Assembly (NCBI GenBank): GCA_024275095.1
Contig: JAJRZV010000102.1
Location: 1-46,502, forward strand
Source of the DNA: a bacterium
GTDB taxonomy: Bacteria > JAJRZV01
Direction: 5' to 3'
DNA length: 46,502 nt
Part shown: piece after piece, positions 11,188 to 20,182 of the stretch
Position numbering within the stretch: position 1 is the stretch's first letter
How the letters are laid out: each line of letters opens with the position of its first letter
The notes under the pieces: generated by a model
Databases searched by the model: none
Told to the model about the DNA's origin: nothing
Seen by the model: the letters and a program-made list of their open reading frames with translations, nothing else
Made by a program: the position numbers and the translations under genes

Positions 11188-11856
11188 TTACTGGCTCCAC
11201 CCATGCTTTCCTATAAGTTTCACAAACACGCACCCCCCAAGGTTCTGTATAAACACCTGGCCTTCCCGTTTCTCAACAAGCAGAAGGTCCTGTCCCATAC
11301 GATCACCTACCGGAATAACCAGCCTGCCCCCATCGGCAAGCTGGTTAACGAGCGGTTGAGGGATTTCAGGAGCACCCGCTGTCACAATAATTCCGTCAAA
11401 TGGAGCCGCCTCTGGCCAGCCCAGCGTGCCGTCTCCTACTCTTATGTAAAACCTGGAATAACCCAGAGCCTCCAGCTGTTTCTTCGCCTTTTCCGCAAGC
11501 TCCTGGACACGTTCAATGGAATACACCTCAGCACCTGCCTCCAGCAACACGGCGGTCTGATACCCCGACCCCGTACCAATTTCCAGCACCTTCATTCCAG
11601 TGCGTGGCGCCAGAGCTTCTGTCATGAACGCAACCATGTATGGCTGGGATATGGTCTGTCCGTGACCTATTGGGAGCGGGTGGTCATCGTAAGCCTGTGA
11701 ACGCACGGACTCCGGCACAAACAAGTGGCGGGGAACATTTCTCATTGCTTTGAGCACAACAGGATTTGTTACACCACGATTTCTTATCTGAGTCTCCACC
11801 ATTTGATGGCGCAATCGTGCGTAATACTTCTCTTTATCAGAATTTTTCGAGCTCAT
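11188..11856 (-). CDS. pcm: Protein-L-isoaspartate O-methyltransferase
   Basis: VPRHLFV, GQTISQPY, VLEIGTGSGYQ and APFDGIIVTA motifs. ATG at 11856 chosen as start. Confidence 0.95.
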   Translation of the reverse strand: MSSKNSDKEKYYARLRHQMVETQIRNRGVTNPVVLKAMRNVPRHLFVPESVRSQAYDDHPLPIGHGQTISQPYMVAFMTEALAPRTGMKVLEIGTGSGYQTAVLLEAGAEVYSIERVQELAEKAKKQLEALGYSRFYIRVGDGTLGWPEAAPFDGIIVTAGAPEIPQPLVNQLADGGRLVIPVGDRMGQDLLLVEKREGQVFIQNLGGCVFVKLIGKHGWSQ

Positions 11857-12601
11857 TTTTCCAGTCCTCAAGTATCCGGAGTGATTCGCGGTGGGTAAGA
11901 TCCAGGTGGAGTGGAGTTACTGAAATATATCTCCTCAAAACCATTACGATATCTGAGTTTTCTATGTACTCAAACCCGAGTTCATCTCCCCCTATCCAGT
12001 AATATTTTCTGCCACGTGGGTCAACTTTTTCCACAATGGCTTCACCATACTTACGCCGCCCCTGGACTGTAAACGCTACACCTTTTATTTCTGAGACGCT
12101 ACTTACGGGAGGGACATTCACATTGAGAAATACTCCCTCAGATGGCATACCATGTCTGAAGACAATTTCAGCAAGGCGCCTGGCGAACTGCCCGGCAGGG
12201 GTATAATTCAGGTTTTCCCTTCCCGCAAGGGATATGGAAAAAGCAGGAATGCCAAGAAGTGTTGCTTCCATTGCCGCGGAGACAGTACCACTGTACGTCA
12301 CATCATCTCCAAGGTTGCCTCCCCTGTTGATACCAGAAGCAACAAGATCGGGACGAAATTTCAGGAGTCCATTCACCGCGATATTCACACAATCAGCAGG
12401 CGTTCCATCCACGGCAAATGTTCTTTCATCCACTTCTGTCACGCGTAAAGGCCGATGTAAAGTTATTGCGTGAGACGAGGCGGACTGCTCCCTGTCAGGA
12501 GCCACGATCCAGACTTCGCCCAGCTCTTCGAGCGATTCAGCGAGGCAGCGTAATCCTTCTGCATAAATACCATCGTCATTGGTTACCAGTATCCGCCTCA
12601 T
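11837..12601 (-). CDS. surE: 5'/3'-nucleotidase SurE
   Basis: ILVTNDDG, GTPADCV and SGINRGGNLGDDVTYSGTV motifs. ATG at 12601 preceded by CAGGAG. Confidence 0.95.
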   Translation of the reverse strand: MRRILVTNDDGIYAEGLRCLAESLEELGEVWIVAPDREQSASSHAITLHRPLRVTEVDERTFAVDGTPADCVNIAVNGLLKFRPDLVASGINRGGNLGDDVTYSGTVSAAMEATLLGIPAFSISLAGRENLNYTPAGQFARRLAEIVFRHGMPSEGVFLNVNVPPVSSVSEIKGVAFTVQGRRKYGEAIVEKVDPRGRKYYWIGGDELGFEYIENSDIVMVLRRYISVTPLHLDLTHRESLRILEDWKNELEKF

Positions 12602-12652
12602 CGGATGAACAGCTCCTGAAGTTTTCCGTGAAAATTCATGCATATAAAAAAA

Positions 12653-12728
12653 TGGTCGGGGTGAGCCGACTTGAACGGCCGACCTCTCGCACCCTAAGCG
12701 AGTGCGCTAACCCCTGCGCCACACCCCG
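12653..12728 (-). tRNA. tRNA-Pro with anticodon AGG
   Basis: 76-nt cloverleaf: CGGGGTG TG GCGC-AGGGGTTA-GCGC A CTCGC-TTAGGGT-GCGAG AGGTC GGCCG-TTCAAGT-CGGCT CACCCCG A CCA. C1-G72, A73 and G35/G36 are Pro identity elements. Anticodon at 12695-12693. Confidence 0.93.
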
Positions 12729-12820
12729 ACGCGGAAATTATTATAACAAACCCATCGCTTTTGGTTAATAGCTCCTCAACTGTTGTACCGATTACTGCCC
12801 GCAGAATGCTTACACAAAGC

Positions 12821-13195
12821 TTAATGCGAAATCTGAGCTTCAAGAGAGTCTATATTTTTTTCCACAACCCTCACCAGCTGCTCCAGCTTCTCCCGCACTT
12901 TTTTAAGGCGACCAGCAAGCGTTTGTCGCGAGTGTTTTTCACTTCCACCCCATTTCTCTTCCAGTTTCTTTCTGGCACCTTTAATTGTGAAATTTTCCTC
13001 ATAAAGGAGCTTTTTAATTTCCATTACAAGTTCCAGATCCTTCTTTTTGTAAAGTCGCCGGTTGGCCCGATCCTTTATCGGACGAAGCATGGGAAATTCA
13101 GTCTCCCAGTATCTGAGCACGTGAGCCTTTATTCCCGTAATGCGGGAGACCTCGCTGATGTTGTAGTACAGTTTATCTTTGGGAAACGCTTTCAT
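12821..13195 (-). CDS. MerR-family HTH regulator
   Basis: KLYYNISEVS...HVLRYWETEF...RRLY; conserved position after ihfA. ATG at 13195. Confidence 0.9.
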   Translation of the reverse strand: MKAFPKDKLYYNISEVSRITGIKAHVLRYWETEFPMLRPIKDRANRRLYKKKDLELVMEIKKLLYEENFTIKGARKKLEEKWGGSEKHSRQTLAGRLKKVREKLEQLVRVVEKNIDSLEAQISH

Positions 13196-13463
13196 TGAGT
13201 CGTTTTTTAAGAAGCGGACTTGTCCTGAAAACAAGGACGCGACGCTCAGAAATGGTCATGCTTTCATTTGTTTGAGGATTGCGTCCTCTGCGAGGTTTCT
13301 TGTGGCGCACTTCGAAAATGCCGAAACCTGATAGTTTCAATCTTCCTTCTTTTACAAGCACTTCTTTCATCGTTTCGAACACCAGATCCACAAGTTCCTG
13401 GCACTCTTTTTTGGAGAATCCGATTTTTTCATTAAGAATTTTAACCAGTTCTGCCTTCGTCAT
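13173..13463 (-). CDS. ihfA: Integration host factor subunit alpha
   Basis: MTKAEL...LSGFGIF...RRGRNPQT; directly downstream of pheT. Confidence 0.93.
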   Translation of the reverse strand: MTKAELVKILNEKIGFSKKECQELVDLVFETMKEVLVKEGRLKLSGFGIFEVRHKKPRRGRNPQTNESMTISERRVLVFRTSPLLKKRLNESVSQR

Positions 13464-13473
13464 CCCGTCCTCC

Positions 13474-15873
13474 TTATCTCAAAGAGGCATTAAATTCCTT
13501 TTGAGCCATTTTAATAATAGACTCAAAAATACTCGAAATTTCTTCGGAACTCAAGGTTTTTTTCAGGCTTCTGAACCAAATCTGAAAGGTCACGCTCATG
13601 CGTCCTTGAGGGATGGCACCACCCCTGTATATGTCATAAAGCCACACTTTCCATATATAAGGCGAAACCTCATATATCCGCCTGATCATTGCTTCCACGT
13701 TTTCGCTCTCGTCAATTACAAAAGAAAGATCGCGGATCGCAGGTGGAAAACGAGGCACCTCTCTTGCTGCGTAGTGGCGTGCCTCTACAAGAGTAAGTAC
13801 CTGTTCCATATCTATTTCAGCCACAACTACTCCAGACTCAAGCTCAAGCGAACTTGCAAATTGAGGATGTAGCTCTCCAAATACAGCCACAGGCCTGCCT
13901 TCCTCTGTTTCCATCCGTGCACTTTTGGCTGGATGAAAAAGATTCCCGTGCTGAAGCCTGGTATTTGTTCGCAGGGTTGAGGGAATAACACCAACGCTCA
14001 TGAGCACGCTCTCCACAACACCCTTCACAGTAAAGAAATCAACCTCATGCACCTCATCTGTCCAGGAAATGCCAGGATACCGACCCGAGAGAATCAATCC
14101 CAGGTGTTCACGTTCTTGGAATACTGAACCATCACTGTAAAAAACGCGACCAATCTCGAATAATGCAACATTGCGTCGCAAGTTACGATGATTTTTTGAA
14201 AGGGCTCTTACAAGACCCGAGATAAGATTCATTCTCAAACATGGCTCCTCTTTAGAAAGCGGATTTTCCAGAGTCACTGGAAATGAAATGCCATCTTCAT
14301 TGAAAAAGTAAAAATTTTCTCCTGGATTTTTGGAAGTAAAAATGTACGTCATGGTTTCAAAAAAACCGAGACTCGCAAAATGCTGTTTAACACGCCTGAA
14401 GCAGGTAATACGTGAAGGAAGGCGAAAAGCACCAATTTGAACAGGGCTGAGTGCTTCTGGAACAGCATCGTATCCTCTAATTCGCAAAAGTTCCTCAACC
14501 ACATCCGAGTCCATCTGGACGTCATGCCTGTATGACGGAGGTGAGACCTTAATCGCTTCCTCCTGGACTTCCACCTGGAAATTTAATCGTTTGAGAATAT
14601 CTTCCATCTCTTCGAGGGAGAATTTCACACCCGTTGAGCGCTGGACAAAATCTCTTGAAACAAGAATCGTCGGACGCTCAATGGGGTTTGGGAAATTATC
14701 CAATGGACGAGCGGCTTTTCCTCCACAAATTCTTTCCATCAGATGCGCGGCGCGCCTCAACCCTTTCTCCACTCCAGCAAGATCCACCTTTCTCTCGAAC
14801 CGAAAAGACGATTCAGAAGATATACGATATCGACGGGACGTACGCCTGACAGACGAGGGCTCGAACCACGCGCTCTCGAGAAAAATCTGGACGGTCCCCT
14901 CATCCACAGCCGAGGCCTCACCACCCATCACACCTGCAAGTGCTACCGGCCCTTTTTCGTCAGCAATAACGAGATCTTCCTCGGTCAGCTCCAGATGTGA
15001 ACCGTCAAGCAAAAGGAGTTTCTCACCGGGTCTGGCAAAGCGCACATGAATATCACCTTCCAGCCTTGTCAGATCAAATGCGTGCAAAGGTTGACCCAGT
15101 TCCATGAGCACATAGTTGGTAATATCCACTGTATTGAGAATAGGCCTGAGCCCCATCTTTATTAATCGAGCCTTCATCCACGCAGGTGACTCTCCGCACT
15201 TAATATCAGTAATAATCAGGCCCATGTATCTGCGACAGTAAAACCCGTTATCAATATGTACATCCTTGTGAATTTCTACAGGATGTTCTGTAAAGGAAAT
15301 ATCGGGTTCTTTAAAATCGCGTCCTATAACAGCCGCTATCTCCCGGGCCATGCCCAGATGACTGAGCACATCACCACGGTTGGGAGTTACTGCAATCTCG
15401 AAAAGCGTGTCTTTAAACTCAAGTGCTTCCACCATATCAGACCCGTCAGGAGTACCGTCATTAAGCCTCATAACCCCGGGAGACTTTTCCTCAAGCCCCA
15501 GTTCTTCAGGAGAACACAACATGCCCTCTGATAAAACATCGCGGATCTTGCGGGCCTCTATTGCTGCTCCACCTTTGATGCGTGCACCAGGAGGTGCAAA
15601 CGGGCAGACATCGCCCTCTGATACGGAAAGGTCACCACAAATAATTTCGTATTCTTTTGGTCCAGCCTTTACTTTGAGCACGTGTAGCTTATCCGCCTGC
15701 GGATGGGGCGCTACTGAAAGCACCTTTGCCGCGATTACGCCTTCTATACCATCTCCCAGCACTTCATAACCCTCTACCTCAAAGCCTGCCATGGTCAAAG
15801 CGCGTGCCAGTTCTTCATCCTCCATGTCAGAAATATCCACGAAATCACATATCCAGCGGCGGCTGATCTTCAT
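13474..15873 (-). CDS. pheT: Phenylalanine-tRNA ligase beta subunit
   Basis: TPNRGDVLSH, TNYVLMELGQPLHAFD and RDLSF motifs; 799 aa. Confidence 0.97.
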   Translation of the reverse strand: MKISRRWICDFVDISDMEDEELARALTMAGFEVEGYEVLGDGIEGVIAAKVLSVAPHPQADKLHVLKVKAGPKEYEIICGDLSVSEGDVCPFAPPGARIKGGAAIEARKIRDVLSEGMLCSPEELGLEEKSPGVMRLNDGTPDGSDMVEALEFKDTLFEIAVTPNRGDVLSHLGMAREIAAVIGRDFKEPDISFTEHPVEIHKDVHIDNGFYCRRYMGLIITDIKCGESPAWMKARLIKMGLRPILNTVDITNYVLMELGQPLHAFDLTRLEGDIHVRFARPGEKLLLLDGSHLELTEEDLVIADEKGPVALAGVMGGEASAVDEGTVQIFLESAWFEPSSVRRTSRRYRISSESSFRFERKVDLAGVEKGLRRAAHLMERICGGKAARPLDNFPNPIERPTILVSRDFVQRSTGVKFSLEEMEDILKRLNFQVEVQEEAIKVSPPSYRHDVQMDSDVVEELLRIRGYDAVPEALSPVQIGAFRLPSRITCFRRVKQHFASLGFFETMTYIFTSKNPGENFYFFNEDGISFPVTLENPLSKEEPCLRMNLISGLVRALSKNHRNLRRNVALFEIGRVFYSDGSVFQEREHLGLILSGRYPGISWTDEVHEVDFFTVKGVVESVLMSVGVIPSTLRTNTRLQHGNLFHPAKSARMETEEGRPVAVFGELHPQFASSLELESGVVVAEIDMEQVLTLVEARHYAAREVPRFPPAIRDLSFVIDESENVEAMIRRIYEVSPYIWKVWLYDIYRGGAIPQGRMSVTFQIWFRSLKKTLSSEEISSIFESIIKMAQKEFNASLR

Positions 15874-16898
15874 CGAAACTGTTCCAGAAAGTCAAGATTT
15901 CCTTCGTAAAATAACCGAATATCAGAAATGGAATACTTCAGCATGGTAAGACGTTCCACACCCACACCAAAGGCAAAGCCGGAAAATTTCTCGGGATCAA
16001 GATGCACATTTTTCAACACTTCTGGATGAATCATGCCGCAACCCATCACCTCAATCCAGCCTTCTCCGCATATACGGCAACCTTCGCCACCGCAAAAAAC
16101 GCATCCAATATCTACTTCTGCACTGGGTTCAGTGAAAGGGAAGTAACTTGGCCTGAATCGTACGGGAATATCCAGGAGAAAGAATGTTCTGAGAAACTCG
16201 GATATCACCCCTTTTAAATGCGCAAAGGAGATGTCCACATCCACAGCAAAACCCTCTACCTGATGAAACATGGGGCTGTGTGACACATCGAAATCCCGGC
16301 GGTACACCCGACCGGGAGCTATTACCTTCAGAGGCGGCGTTTTTACCTCCATTACGCGTATCTGAACAGGAGAAGTATGCGTCCGCAAGAGAAACCTGCC
16401 CCCTTCAATGTAAAATGTGTCCTGCATATCTCTCGCGGGATGGTCCTTGGGGATATTGAGGCCTTCAAAATTGTGATAGTCATCTTCAATTTCCGGGCCT
16501 TCCTCCACTTCAAACCCCATGGAAAGGAAAATATCTATTATCTCGTCCATTACCCTGGAGATGGGATGTACCGCACCCACAGGAAAGGGTCTTCCAGGAA
16601 GGTGAACATTGACCTTTTCTTCCAGGAGTTTACGTTGAACCTTTTCTTCTTGAAGCTCCCGAAGCCTTCGCGTAATTCCGTTCGTAACCTTTTCTTTGAG
16701 TTGATTAACTGCCCTACCGTAATCTTTTCTTTTAGCAGGATCTATCTGTGGTATGGCTTTGAGAAGCCCTGTAACAAGGCCTTCCTTGCGACCCAAATAC
16801 TTAACTTTCAGACGTTCAAGCTCACTTTCGTGCGATGCATTCTTTATATCGTGCTCAAACTCTTCCTCAATGCGTTTGATGGCCTCGTATTCATCCAC
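15870..16898 (-). CDS. pheS: Phenylalanine-tRNA ligase alpha subunit
   Basis: HPARDMQDTFY, LRTHTSPVQ and FRPSYFPFTEPS motifs. Confidence 0.97.
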   Translation of the reverse strand: MDEYEAIKRIEEEFEHDIKNASHESELERLKVKYLGRKEGLVTGLLKAIPQIDPAKRKDYGRAVNQLKEKVTNGITRRLRELQEEKVQRKLLEEKVNVHLPGRPFPVGAVHPISRVMDEIIDIFLSMGFEVEEGPEIEDDYHNFEGLNIPKDHPARDMQDTFYIEGGRFLLRTHTSPVQIRVMEVKTPPLKVIAPGRVYRRDFDVSHSPMFHQVEGFAVDVDISFAHLKGVISEFLRTFFLLDIPVRFRPSYFPFTEPSAEVDIGCVFCGGEGCRICGEGWIEVMGCGMIHPEVLKNVHLDPEKFSGFAFGVGVERLTMLKYSISDIRLFYEGNLDFLEQFR

Positions 16899-20110: not shown

Positions 20111-20182
20111 TAGGCACGGGCGGGTTCGAACCGCCGACCTCTGCCGTGTGAGAGCAGCGCTCTCCCCCTGAGCTACGTGCCT
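20111..20182 (-). tRNA. tRNA-Val (CAC), CCA not encoded
   Basis: AGGCACG TA GCTC-AGGGGGA-GAGC G CTGCT-CTCACAC-GGCAG AGGTC GGCGG-TTCGAAC-CCGCC CGTGCCT A. Confidence 0.93.

What the first reader, a model, noticed from the sequence alone, without database searches (positions are those of the whole stretch)
12653..12728. tRNA-Pro with anticodon AGG (A34), suggesting expanded inosine wobble decoding in a bacterium
Seen: an intact 76-nt cloverleaf with Pro identity elements, encoded CCA and anticodon loop UU-AGG-GU. Established: bacteria nearly always restrict A34 to tRNA-Arg(ACG), deaminated to inosine by TadA, with only sporadic exceptions such as tRNA-Leu(AAG) in some Firmicutes. tRNA-Pro(IGG) is the eukaryotic solution, and the ihfA-merR locus usually carries tRNA-Pro(GGG). 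Seen: CCC codons are common here (several near the fadN start). Inference: the GGG isoacceptor was replaced in place by AGG, which would need a TadA with broadened specificity (I34 reads CCU/CCC/CCA) or unmodified-A34 wobbling. This is the best candidate for an undescribed system in the window.
Basis: partly seen in the sequence, partly recalled or inferred. Interest (0 to 1): 0.82.

Follow-up and report, generated by a model that had tools for sequence, protein, structure and literature searches.

The report
Proline tRNA with rare AGG anticodon
A normal-looking proline tRNA gene has A instead of the usual G at the first anticodon position; the same rare variant occurs in more than a hundred other bacterial species and probably works without special editing, and in this error-prone assembly the single base still needs checking against reads.

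Summary
Window 12653..12728 (- strand) encodes an intact tRNA-Pro with anticodon AGG; A34 is base 12695. It sits in the conserved pheST-ihfA-merR-tRNA-Pro-surE slot. That slot holds tRNA-Pro(GGG) in 5 of 5 syntenic loci from other phyla. The assembly has no true Pro(GGG), so an in-place G34-to-A change is supported.

The inosine reading is not supported. TadA is single-copy and canonical. The tRNA-Arg(ACG) loop is the canonical CUACGAA. The Pro loop UUAGGGU departs from the published TadA motif at positions 35, 37 and 38. In published work, engineered G34A proline tRNAs in Salmonella and E. coli stay unmodified, are tolerated and read CCU and CCC.

The anticodon is not unique. This scan also reported a bacterial Pro(AGG) earlier on other DNA (e1-2255800).

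Caveat: the genome is the only held member of its phylum, and no reads or close relatives could be fetched. The assembly carries in-frame stops in essential genes (dnaE, lon, prfB, sufB, trmD), so one base cannot be trusted blindly. I put about 0.7 on A34 being real.

Verdict: a new member of a known oddity, of modest interest.

The parts
12653..12728 (-). tRNA-Pro gene, anticodon AGG, 76 nt with encoded CCA
   Evidence: ARAGORN. Rfam RF00005 at 56.5 bits. Sequence. Cloverleaf MFE fold.
12693..12695 (-). Anticodon A34-G35-G36. A34 is base 12695, which reads T on the + strand.
   Evidence: The nearest tRNA homologues from other phyla have the same anticodon stem-loop with G at this one position.
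12740..12768 (-). Sigma-70-like promoter match TTAACC-17-TATAAT with TG before the -10. The -10 ends 12 nt before the mature 5' end.
   Evidence: Consensus scan, 10 of 12 matches. One site was found against a mean of 1.0 in shuffles, so it is only suggestive.
12646..12670 (-). Terminator-like feature: a hairpin made of the 3' half of the T arm and acceptor stem, followed by a run of seven T directly after CCA
   Evidence: Consensus scan and sequence. Suggestive only.
12821..13198 (-). MerR-family regulator gene directly upstream of the tRNA
   Evidence: Pfam MerR_1, 9.3e-20. Homologues lie upstream of tRNA-Pro(GGG) in L003, L004, L008, L025 and L026.
13173..13463 (-). IHF/HU-type DNA-binding protein gene (ihfA-like)
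   Evidence: Pfam Bac_DNA_binding, 1.4e-29.
13474..16898 (-). pheS (15870..16898) and pheT (13474..15873)
   Evidence: Pfam tRNA-synt_2d, B3_4, tRNA_synthFbeta and FDX-ACB.
11188..12601 (-). surE (11837..12601) and pcm (11188..11871), downstream of the tRNA
   Evidence: Pfam SurE 2.5e-63 and PCMT 8.3e-67. The order tRNA-Pro, surE, pcm is the same in L004.

Best explanation
This is a genuine elongator tRNA-Pro gene, the orthologue of the tRNA-Pro(GGG) that many phyla keep downstream of pheST-ihfA-merR. Its wobble base has changed in place from G to A.

It is most likely transcribed from its own promoter. ProRS should charge it, because G35, G36, G37, A73 and C1-G72 are intact. It most likely keeps A34 unmodified. 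It would then read CCU by a Watson-Crick pair and CCC by an A-C wobble made tolerable by the two strong G-C pairs of the proline box. In that way it takes over the work of the missing GGG isoacceptor, while tRNA-Pro(UGG) and tRNA-Pro(CGG) read CCA and CCG.

Shown: gene integrity, its position, the single-base difference from GGG homologues, the absence of a GGG gene, and the presence of UGG and CGG genes and of one canonical TadA.

Inferred: expression, charging, the unmodified state and the decoding pattern. These rest on published work with engineered G34A proline tRNAs.
For: - Intact tRNA.
- The closest tRNA matches in 40 genomes of other phyla (89%, 86% and 85% identity) are all Pro(GGG). 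Their anticodon stem-loop is identical apart from position 34.
- In 5 of 5 loci where a homologous merR lies next to a tRNA-Pro, the anticodon is GGG. L004 shares the whole order pheT-ihfA-merR-tRNA-surE-pcm.
- Whole-genome ARAGORN gives Pro AGG, CGG and UGG. The only other A34 tRNA is Arg(ACG).
- CCU plus CCC make up 62% of proline codons, so a CCY reader is needed.
- Recurrence elsewhere: 118 of 120 scanned loci carry Pro(AGG), as 66 distinct sequences. Eight anticodon-arm types with 4 to 26 members cover 106 of the 118, and three carriers are cultured isolates.
- In 5 such genomes a loose pattern found 5 AGG, 7 UGG, 2 CGG and 0 GGG matches.
- Literature on Salmonella: tRNA-Pro(AGG) reads CCC almost as well as the GGG form and is not deaminated by TadA (PMC3711424, introduction passages).
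- Literature on E. coli: the proL G34A strain grows like wild type, and the 4-fold-box ANN tRNAs that were tested stay unmodified (bioRxiv 10.64898/2026.05.15.725136, passages and section 14).
- An orthogonal AGG tRNA reassigns CCU 12.9% and CCC 10.3% with no inosine detected (PMC11066159, passages).
Against: - The single base could not be verified, and conservation cannot be tested. The genome is the only held member of its phylum. Two metagenome scans found nothing.
- The assembly has demonstrable base-level faults. In 18 random 20-kb regions, 6 of 119 candidate in-frame stops are spanned by one Pfam domain: lon, an ABC permease, a hydrogenase small subunit, RF2, dnaE and sufB. More lie in trmD, a DUF4143 gene and probably rplC.
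- There is no proline-specific codon-usage signal. The shift toward U-ending codons in 40 highly expressed ORFs is the same in every box. Pro C/(C+U) goes from 0.48 to 0.40, Ala from 0.51 to 0.40 and Gly from 0.43 to 0.30.
- The genome is 47.8% G+C, unlike the AT-rich genera in which A34 tRNAs are reported as fixed.
- The promoter and terminator matches are no more frequent than in shuffles.
Confidence: 0.55

Rival explanations
1. The A at position 34 is not the organism's normal allele. It is an assembly or consensus error, or a minority variant taken into the contig, and the real gene is an ordinary tRNA-Pro(GGG).
For: - The gene differs from widespread GGG homologues in its anticodon arm at this one base only.
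- The assembly carries in-frame stops inside essential genes. Six of 119 candidates in a random 360-kb sample are spanned by one Pfam domain. Alignments to solved structures run continuously across the stop for the five cases I checked: the hydrogenase small subunit, SufB, Lon, DnaE and RF2. Further cases are trmD, a DUF4143 gene and probably rplC.
- A random substitution gives a stop with probability 0.0395. With a guessed one-in-three detection rate, my rough estimate is about 1e-3 substitutions per base, uncertain several-fold. That is the same order as the natural frequency of Pro(AGG), which is at least 118 of 185,579 species.
- Eighteen contig-end overlaps (5,991 bp) show 39 mismatches.
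- No codon-usage trace of a long-standing A34 was found.
Against: - The nine in-frame stops are 7 TAA, 1 TAG and 1 TGA. That fits G>T/C>A changes (likelihood 0.054) or A>T/T>A changes (0.044). It does not fit the C>T/G>A class to which the tRNA change belongs (below 1e-4), so this class is not the main visible error type.
- None of 29 candidate stops in the 46.5-kb window itself is spanned by a domain.
- pheS, pheT, surE and pcm next to the tRNA are intact.
- All anticodon and T stems of the 44 tRNA genes checked (the false call inside pheT left out) pair correctly.
- An error would have to hit exactly this base, whereas natural G34-to-A replacement of this tRNA is documented in many clades.
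Confidence: 0.27
2. One reading: A34 is deaminated to inosine by this organism's TadA. The tRNA would then act as tRNA-Pro(IGG) and read CCU, CCC and CCA, as in eukaryotes.
For: - A TadA gene is present.
- TadA enzymes of Oenococcus and Streptococcus have broadened to tRNA-Leu(AAG) (PMC11472039 and PMC13249217, passages).
- According to PMC11472039, position C35 makes only one hydrogen bond to TadA in the S. aureus complex, so that position may evolve.
Against: - TadA is single-copy and close to E. coli TadA. The alignment keeps the HAE and PCxxC motifs and the C-terminal FF..RR helix. At 158 aa it lacks the C-terminal extension noted for S. pyogenes TadA.
- The Pro loop UUAGGGU differs from YUACGAA at positions 35, 37 and 38. 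The broadened S. pyogenes motif is YUAMGRA and still excludes G35 and U38.
- PMC11066159 reports that every tested change at positions 32, 37 or 38 blocked E. coli TadA, and that an AGG tRNA carried no inosine.
- Both tRNA-Pro(UGG) and tRNA-Pro(CGG) are retained.
Confidence: 0.08
3. The A34 allele is real but the gene is a decaying or poorly used copy. CCY codons would then be read mainly by tRNA-Pro(UGG) through four-way wobble.
For: Deleting proL (the GGG tRNA) in E. coli does not impair growth (bioRxiv 10.64898/2026.05.15.725136, passage), so this isoacceptor is dispensable where a UGG tRNA exists. G000 has a UGG tRNA.
Against: - The gene shows no other defect: a perfect cloverleaf, conserved T loop, encoded CCA and a promoter-like site.
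- No true CmoB was found. Only partial methyltransferase-domain matches appeared, the best at 30.6 bits over profile positions 113-214 of 315. The modification known to help U34 read all four proline codons in enterobacteria (recalled) is therefore not evident.
- CCU plus CCC are 62% of proline codons.
Confidence: 0.05

Closest known systems
Engineered or mutant bacterial tRNA-Pro(AGG): Salmonella proL G34A (Chen et al. 2002, seen only as cited in PMC3711424 and PMC11066159) and E. coli proL G34A (bioRxiv 10.64898/2026.05.15.725136)
   Same: The change is the same: G34 to A in the GGG isoacceptor, with the rest of the tRNA untouched, in a bacterium with a canonical TadA. Those tRNAs are expressed, stay unmodified at A34, read CCU and CCC, and carry no measurable growth cost.
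   Different: Those are laboratory constructs in enterobacteria. This is a natural allele in an uncultured lineage. Nothing about its expression or modification has been measured.
Natural tRNA-Pro(AGG) genes in other bacteria. Examples are the cultured Chryseotalea sanaruensis (L115), Stecheria intestinalis (L076) and Anaerotignum sp. MSJ-24 (L143), plus many MAGs titled Cytophagales, Christensenellaceae/Borkfalkiaceae and Bacteroidales.
   Same: They have the same anticodon in a standard bacterial tRNA-Pro body. GGG was absent and UGG and/or CGG present in the genomes I checked. One MAG titled uncultured Cytophagales (L127) has the very same anticodon arm as the window.
   Different: These tRNAs are 86% identical or less to the window's. 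None of their 300-bp flanks matches the window's merR, ihfA, surE, pcm or pheT. In several of those clades the anticodon is shared by many species. Here no relative exists to test fixation. Of the 118, 112 have A38, while the window has U38.
tRNA-Leu(AAG) of Lactobacillales (Streptococcus, Oenococcus) and tRNA-Thr(AGU) of Leuconostocaceae and Mycoplasma
   Same: An A34 tRNA stands in for the missing G34 isoacceptor of a four-fold codon box, and the other isoacceptors are kept (PMC8007984).
   Different: Leu(AAG) is shown to be deaminated by a TadA of broadened specificity. Those genera are AT-rich, at 60-70% A+T. G000 is 47.8% G+C, its TadA looks canonical, and G35 has not been reported as accepted by any TadA in the papers I read.
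Eukaryotic tRNA-Pro(AGG) converted to IGG by ADAT2/ADAT3
   Same: The encoded anticodon is the same, and it replaces the GGG isoacceptor.
   Different: Eukaryotes use a heterodimeric deaminase that tolerates many loop sequences and needs the whole tRNA (PMC11472039, passages). No ADAT3-like partner or second deaminase of the TadA type is evident in G000. The other two PF14437 matches are a dCMP-deaminase-like ORF and a 373-aa ORF that I take to be RibD. I named both from their sequence and length, not from a family search.

Membership tests
Bacterial elongator tRNA-Pro | Cloverleaf that matches the tRNA covariance model above the curated threshold | tested here: met
   RF00005 at 56.5 bits against a gathering score of 29. 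ARAGORN calls tRNA-Pro.
Bacterial elongator tRNA-Pro | ProRS identity set: G35, G36, A73 and G72 (C1-G72 pair), with G37 as the TrmD substrate. The identity set is recalled from the literature and comes from no call. | tested here: met
   All are present in the sequence. They are invariant in the alignment with 8 other Pro tRNAs. A trmD gene is present at 212 bits, though with one in-frame TAA in the assembly.
Bacterial elongator tRNA-Pro | Expressed and aminoacylated with proline | not testable with these tools
   No sequencing run could be listed.
A34-for-G34 replacement tRNAs of four-fold codon boxes (Leu-AAG / Thr-AGU type) | ANN anticodon in a four-fold box, with the cognate GNN gene absent and the other isoacceptors kept | tested here: met
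   Pro AGG, UGG and CGG are present. No true GGG exists in the 97%-complete assembly. The ARAGORN 'ggg' call lies inside pheT and has no Rfam match.
A34-for-G34 replacement tRNAs of four-fold codon boxes (Leu-AAG / Thr-AGU type) | Same gene slot as the GNN orthologue (replacement in place) | tested here: met
   Five of 5 merR-adjacent tRNA-Pro genes in other phyla are GGG. L004 shares the full gene order.
A34-for-G34 replacement tRNAs of four-fold codon boxes (Leu-AAG / Thr-AGU type) | Anticodon conserved across related species (fixed in a lineage) | not testable with these tools
   G000 is the only held genome of its phylum. The nearest SurE relatives, at 71% identity, lie only in a collection whose contigs could not be fetched. 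Metagenome scans gave 0 hits.
A34-for-G34 replacement tRNAs of four-fold codon boxes (Leu-AAG / Thr-AGU type) | AT-rich genome or preference for the U-ending codon of that box, as reported for genera with fixed ANN tRNAs | tested here: not met
   The genome is 47.8% G+C. CCU is 0.32 and CCC 0.30. The shift toward U in highly expressed genes is not specific to proline.
TadA substrates (tRNAs carrying I34 in bacteria) | A34 in a 7-nt anticodon loop on a 5-bp stem, with a TadA gene in the genome | tested here: met
   TadA is NF008113 at 195.2 bits against a cut-off of 150.
TadA substrates (tRNAs carrying I34 in bacteria) | Loop matching the TadA recognition motif: core UACG and extended YUACGAA, or YUAMGRA for the broadened S. 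pyogenes enzyme (PMC11472039) | tested here: not met
   The Pro loop is UUAGGGU, with G35, G37 and U38. The genome's Arg(ACG) loop is CUACGAA (motif).
TadA substrates (tRNAs carrying I34 in bacteria) | Demonstrated A-to-I conversion at position 34 | not testable with these tools
   This needs tRNA sequencing or an in vitro assay.

The most novel reading that the evidence does not exclude
In this deep-branching lineage an outwardly canonical TadA does accept G35 and deaminates tRNA-Pro(AGG). That would give the first bacterial tRNA-Pro(IGG), an independent bacterial step toward the eukaryotic I34 decoding scheme. The many other Pro(AGG) clades found here, some with a neighbouring tRNA-Leu(AAG), would then be further cases.
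Probability: 0.07. Interest if true: 0.75.

Novelty: new member of a known kind. Interest (0 to 1): 0.3.

Why it matters
Why bacteria avoid A-starting anticodons is an open puzzle. Recent laboratory work finds no clear cost of such tRNAs in four-fold codon boxes.

A natural proline tRNA with A34 in a moderately GC-rich, deep-branching bacterium would be one more data point. It would suggest that G34-to-A replacement happens and persists outside AT-rich Firmicutes.

The more useful result here is the wider one. Proline AGG tRNAs recur in at least 118 species and stand in for the GGG tRNA in the five genomes I checked. They also occur in cultured strains, namely Chryseotalea sanaruensis, Stecheria intestinalis and Anaerotignum sp. 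MSJ-24. In those strains the A-versus-inosine question can be settled by ordinary tRNA sequencing.

For this window alone the value is limited, because the call rests on one base of an assembly with visible base errors.

Tried and rejected
- **Raw reads.** No sequencing run could be listed for window 12200-13400, so base 12695 could not be checked and read laying was not used.
- **Relatives.** Two exact-pattern scans of metagenome contigs with R at position 34 found 0 matches. One used the D-loop plus anticodon arm, the other the anticodon arm through the acceptor 3' half. The phylum-level genome search held only G000.
- **Codon-usage test.** I looked for a long-standing A34 by comparing 40 highly expressed ORFs with 1906 long ORFs. 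There was no proline-specific signal, so the test is uninformative in both directions.
- **tRNA stem check as an error gauge.** I found no mismatches in the anticodon and T stems of the 44 tRNA genes checked (the false call inside pheT left out). The acceptor-stem counts of that script were artefacts of ARAGORN start offsets and were discarded.
- **Flanks of the other AGG loci.** tblastn of the window's MerR, IhfA, SurE, Pcm and PheT against the 300-bp flanks of the 120 AGG loci gave no hits. The flanks are short.
- **CmoB search.** I looked for CmoB to judge four-way reading by the UGG tRNA. Only partial methyltransferase matches appeared.
- **Residue-level reading of TadA contacts with position 35.** The papers held gave only general statements, so I make no residue-level claim.
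- **Code change as an explanation of the in-frame stops.** I rejected this. All three stop codons occur in frame (7 TAA, 1 TAG, 1 TGA). TAA also ends 703 of 1906 long ORFs. No suppressor tRNA was found.
- **Papers not available.** Rafels-Ybern et al. 2018 (PMC6103674) is not held. Rafels-Ybern 2019 and Chen 2002 were seen only as cited. Figure 4 and the supplements of the bioRxiv survey, which may list Pro(AGG) counts by phylum, could not be seen.
- **Novelty search.** In searches I saw no paper describing natural bacterial Pro(AGG) clades. The only related statement is that survey's remark that all ANN anticodons occur in GtRNAdb.
Full report
**1. The observation**

ARAGORN finds a 76-nt tRNA-Pro with anticodon AGG at 12653..12728 on the - strand. 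The Rfam tRNA model scores it 56.5 bits against a gathering score of 29, E 7.3e-11, when 12400..15200 is scanned. The whole-window gathering scan listed only the tRNA-Val at 20111..20182, so the speed filters lost this gene.

The sequence has these features:
- a C1-G72 acceptor stem;
- A73 and an encoded CCA;
- a D arm GCGC/GCGC;
- the anticodon arm CUCGC-UUAGGGU-GCGAG;
- a five-base variable region and a T arm with loop UUCAAGU.

The anticodon and T stems pair fully. The lowest-energy fold is the cloverleaf, although 14 of 200 shuffles fold as well, so the fold energy alone proves nothing. On the + strand 12693..12695 reads CCT, so A34 is base 12695.

**2. Surroundings**

All on the - strand, the order is pheS (15870..16898), pheT (13474..15873), an IHF/HU-type gene (13173..13463), a MerR-family gene (12821..13198), the tRNA, surE (11837..12601) and pcm (11188..11871).

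A promoter-like site, TTAACC-17-TATAAT with an upstream TG, ends 12 nt before the mature 5' end. A run of seven T follows the CCA. Such matches are as frequent in shuffled sequence, so they are only suggestive.

A second ARAGORN call, an 85-nt 'tRNA-Pro(ggg)' at 14846..14930, lies inside the pheT reading frame and has no Rfam match. I treat it as false.

**3. The genome's tRNA set**

The window is contig C69 of a 2.45-Mb assembly with 136 contigs, 47.8% G+C, 97% completeness and 0.94% contamination. ARAGORN on the whole assembly gives 45 calls.
- The proline tRNAs are AGG (this gene), CGG (C61) and UGG (C13), plus the false call.
- The only other A-starting anticodon is Arg(ACG).
- No genuine Pro(GGG) is present.
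- Asn, Ile and Ala(UGC) tRNAs are missing. I take this to reflect unassembled rRNA-operon regions, so absence from this assembly is not proof of absence.

**4. Replacement in place**

In 40 genomes of other phyla the best matches to this tRNA (89%, 86% and 85% identity) are all Pro(GGG). In the alignment their anticodon stem-loop is identical to the window's except at position 34.

I compared the window's flanking proteins with those loci. A homologous merR gene lies directly upstream of a tRNA-Pro in five of them: L003, L004, L008, L025 and L026. All five are GGG. L004 has the whole order pheT-ihfA-merR-tRNA-surE-pcm.

**5. How unusual is it?**

I scanned one genome per species (185,579 species) with a generic pattern. 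It specified the tRNA-Pro D arm, the loop bases UAGGG, the variable-region GGUC and the T-loop consensus.
ARAGORN calls tRNA-Pro(AGG) in 118 of the 120. The other two, titled Candidatus Nanosyncoccus and Candidatus Saccharibacteria, are called GGG.
- The 118 comprise 66 distinct sequences. Eight anticodon-arm types with 4 to 26 members account for 106 of them.
- Record titles point to many MAGs named Clostridia, Christensenellaceae/Christensenella, Borkfalkiaceae, Scatosoma or Coproplasma. Others are rumen and gut Bacteroidales and Cytophagales families (Cyclobacteriaceae, Chryseolinea, Ohtaekwangia, Roseivirgaceae, Microscillaceae). There are also Succinivibrio and Enterobacterales MAGs.
- Three carriers are cultured isolates: Stecheria intestinalis, Chryseotalea sanaruensis and Anaerotignum sp. 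MSJ-24.
- In five of these genomes a looser pattern found 5 AGG, 7 UGG, 2 CGG and 0 GGG proline tRNAs. AGG therefore stands in for GGG and not for the other isoacceptors, as in G000.
- Two loci (L087, L143) also carry tRNA-Leu(AAG) next to Pro(AGG).

A recent preprint surveying GtRNAdb reports 695 non-ACG ANN tRNA genes in 4047 bacteria. They cover every ANN anticodon, mostly in four-fold boxes (bioRxiv 10.64898/2026.05.15.725136, section 14). This scan had already reported a conserved bacterial Pro(AGG) in a Verrucomicrobia-phylum genome (e1-2255800). The kind is therefore known, and this window is one more example.

**6. Mechanism**

The published experiments I could read are consistent with one another.
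- A Salmonella tRNA-Pro with G34 changed to A reads CCC almost as efficiently as the GGG form. TadA deaminates no A34 tRNA other than Arg(ACG) (PMC3711424, introduction passages).
- An E. coli proL G34A strain grows like the wild type. The four-fold-box ANN tRNAs that were tested are mature and unmodified at A34 (bioRxiv preprint, passages).
- An orthogonal tRNA with anticodon AGG reassigns CCU 12.9%, CCC 10.3%, CCA 0.92% and CCG 1.0%, with no inosine detected (PMC11066159, passages).

E. coli-type TadA edits the core UACG within YUACGAA. The broadened S. pyogenes enzyme accepts YUAMGRA (PMC11472039, passages).

In G000 the tRNA-Arg(ACG) loop is CUACGAA and the Pro(AGG) loop is UUAGGGU, which deviates at positions 35, 37 and 38.

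G000 has one TadA:
- 158 aa, matching NF008113 at 195.2 bits against a cut-off of 150;
- E 3.5e-45 to E. coli TadA 1Z3A;
- HAE and PCxxC motifs and the C-terminal FF..RR helix kept in the alignment.

The other two deaminase-domain matches are a dCMP-deaminase-like ORF and a 373-aa ORF that I take to be RibD. I named both from sequence and length only.

Nothing points to a broadened enzyme, though sequence alone cannot exclude one. I therefore favour an unmodified A34 that reads CCU and CCC. These two codons make up 62% of proline codons: CCU 0.32, CCC 0.30, CCG 0.22 and CCA 0.16 in 1906 long ORFs. The UGG and CGG tRNAs would serve CCA and CCG. TrmD, which methylates G37, is present. No true CmoB was found.

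**7. A test that gave no signal**

If A34 were old, highly expressed genes might favour CCU more than other boxes favour their U-ending codon. I took 40 ORFs of the ribosomal-protein, rpoBC and fusA clusters (9445 codons). The C/(C+U) ratio falls from 0.48 to 0.40 for Pro. It falls by a similar amount in every other box: Thr 0.65 to 0.55, Ala 0.51 to 0.40, Gly 0.43 to 0.30 and the Arg four-codon box 0.53 to 0.39. There is no proline-specific trace. Since A34 in tRNA-Pro is reported to read U and C about equally, this argues neither way.

**8. Can the base be trusted?**

No sequencing run could be listed. G000 is the only held genome of its phylum. Two metagenome scans allowing A or G at position 34 found nothing. 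The nearest SurE relatives, at 71% identity, lie in a collection I could not fetch from.

While collecting highly expressed genes I noticed in-frame TAA stops in rplC and trmD. To measure this without bias I took 18 random 20-kb regions (360 kb). I read every stop with at least 45 open codons on both sides and a positive coding score as X, then scanned against Pfam.
- In 6 of 119 candidates one domain spans the stop: Lon N-domain (TAG), an ABC permease (TAA), a [NiFe]-hydrogenase small subunit (TAA), RF2 (TAA), the DnaE finger (TAA) and SufB (TGA).
- Alignments to solved structures run straight across the stop for five of these. X aligns with E in the hydrogenase, R in SufB, M in Lon, R in DnaE and D in RF2.
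- A DUF4143 gene and trmD on C29 are further cases.
- All three stop codons occur in frame. TAA also ends 703 of 1906 long ORFs, and no suppressor tRNA exists. This is therefore not a code change but base-level faults, or minority variants, in the consensus.

A random substitution creates a stop with probability 0.0395. With a guessed detection rate of about one in three, six cases in about 320 kb of coding sequence imply roughly 1e-3 substitutions per base. This is my own rough figure and is uncertain several-fold.

Two further results weaken the error reading for this particular base.
- The nine stops are 7 TAA, 1 TAG and 1 TGA. That fits G>T/C>A (likelihood 0.054) or A>T/T>A (0.044). It does not fit the C>T/G>A class to which the tRNA change belongs (below 1e-4).
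- The window itself shows 0 of 29 candidate stops spanned by a domain.

Contig ends overlap in 18 pairs (5,991 bp) with 39 mismatches, 20 transitions and 19 transversions. Each mismatch lies 100 bases or more inside the overlap. I read this as assembly-graph branch points at variant sites.

**9. Weighing**

A random species carries Pro(AGG) with a frequency of at least 6e-4 (118 of 185,579, from a truncated scan). An error making exactly G34 into A would occur at somewhere between 1e-4 and 5e-4, depending on the share of transitions. These are my own rough estimates. I therefore put about 0.7 on A34 being the organism's real allele. Given that it is real, I put about 0.8 on unmodified A34 decoding and about 0.1 on inosine.

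**10. Verdict**

The 'replacement in place' inference is supported, and the inosine and 'undescribed system' interpretation is not. This is a new member of a known kind. Its interest is modest, and is further limited by the unverifiable base.

The by-products may be worth more than the window's own gene:
- clade-level Pro(AGG) in several bacterial orders, including cultured strains;
- two lineages that pair Pro(AGG) with Leu(AAG);
- the poor base quality of this species-representative assembly.

Noticed in passing
G000 outside the window: C11:754-756 (rplC); C29:3214-3216 (trmD); L171:14700-15191:+ (lon); L175:7987-8589:- (ABC permease); L177:4331-4933:+ (hydrogenase small subunit); L182:8193-8741:+ (RF2); L182:1417-2019:- (dnaE); L184:189-791:+ (sufB); L186:11906-12424:- (DUF4143): In-frame stop codons (7 TAA, 1 TAG, 1 TGA) interrupt essential, conserved genes of this 97%-complete assembly. 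In a random 360-kb sample, 6 of 119 candidates are spanned by a single Pfam domain. Five of these were checked against solved structures, and the alignments run across the stop. The cause is most likely base-level consensus errors or minority variants, roughly 1e-3 per base by my estimate. Any single-base finding in this genome needs read support.
   Followed up: yes
L087 (MAG titled uncultured Clostridiales) and L143 (Anaerotignum sp. MSJ-24, contig NZ_JAHLPX010000004.1:1104-1745): tRNA-Pro(AGG) lies beside tRNA-Leu(AAG) and tRNA-Gln(CUG). These lineages therefore have two non-Arg A34 tRNAs in one cluster. One is a cultured strain, which makes it a good place to test whether a bacterial TadA has broadened beyond Leu.
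   Followed up: no
L029-L148 (genome-contig scan): tRNA-Pro(AGG) is shared by many species within a few clades, to judge from record titles. These include Cyclobacteriaceae and other Cytophagales, Christensenellaceae/Borkfalkiaceae/Scatosoma, and rumen Bacteroidales. Identical anticodon arms occur in up to 26 species. In my five literature searches I saw no paper describing these clades.
   Followed up: partly
window 14846..14930 (-): ARAGORN reports an 85-nt 'tRNA-Pro(ggg)' inside the pheT coding sequence. It has no Rfam match and is a false positive. In an automated tally it could wrongly suggest that a GGG isoacceptor exists.
   Followed up: yes
window 12653..12728: The Rfam gathering-threshold scan of the whole 46.5-kb window missed this 56.5-bit tRNA, while a scan of 2.8 kb found it. 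This is a filter effect worth remembering when the default scan is taken to show that a gene is absent.
   Followed up: yes
G000 contig ends, e.g. C21:1-401 vs C68:9803-10203; C34:1-381 vs C124:28669-29049: Eighteen pairs of contig ends overlap by 261-401 bp at 99.0-99.6% identity, with 39 mismatches in 5,991 bp. Each mismatch lies 100 bases or more inside the overlap. Many contig breaks therefore look like graph branches at variant sites, pointing to strain mixture or errors, and neighbouring contigs could be joined.
   Followed up: partly
G000 as a whole: The genome is the only member of its phylum among the held species genomes. The nearest SurE homologues in 5.8 billion proteins are only 71% identical. 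This is a very poorly sampled lineage.
   Followed up: partly
G000 tRNA genes (whole genome): Only 9 of 45 predicted tRNA genes end in CCA. tRNA-Pro(AGG) encodes CCA, while the genome's Pro(UGG) and Pro(CGG) genes do not. Their acceptor and T arms are otherwise nearly identical to it.
   Followed up: no
G000 C53:13-99 and C113:13-99: The first 29 codons of an EF-Tu gene sit at the ends of two contigs, next to fusA on C53 and next to tRNA-Thr/Gly on C113. I infer that two tuf copies collapsed in assembly and broke the contigs.
   Followed up: no
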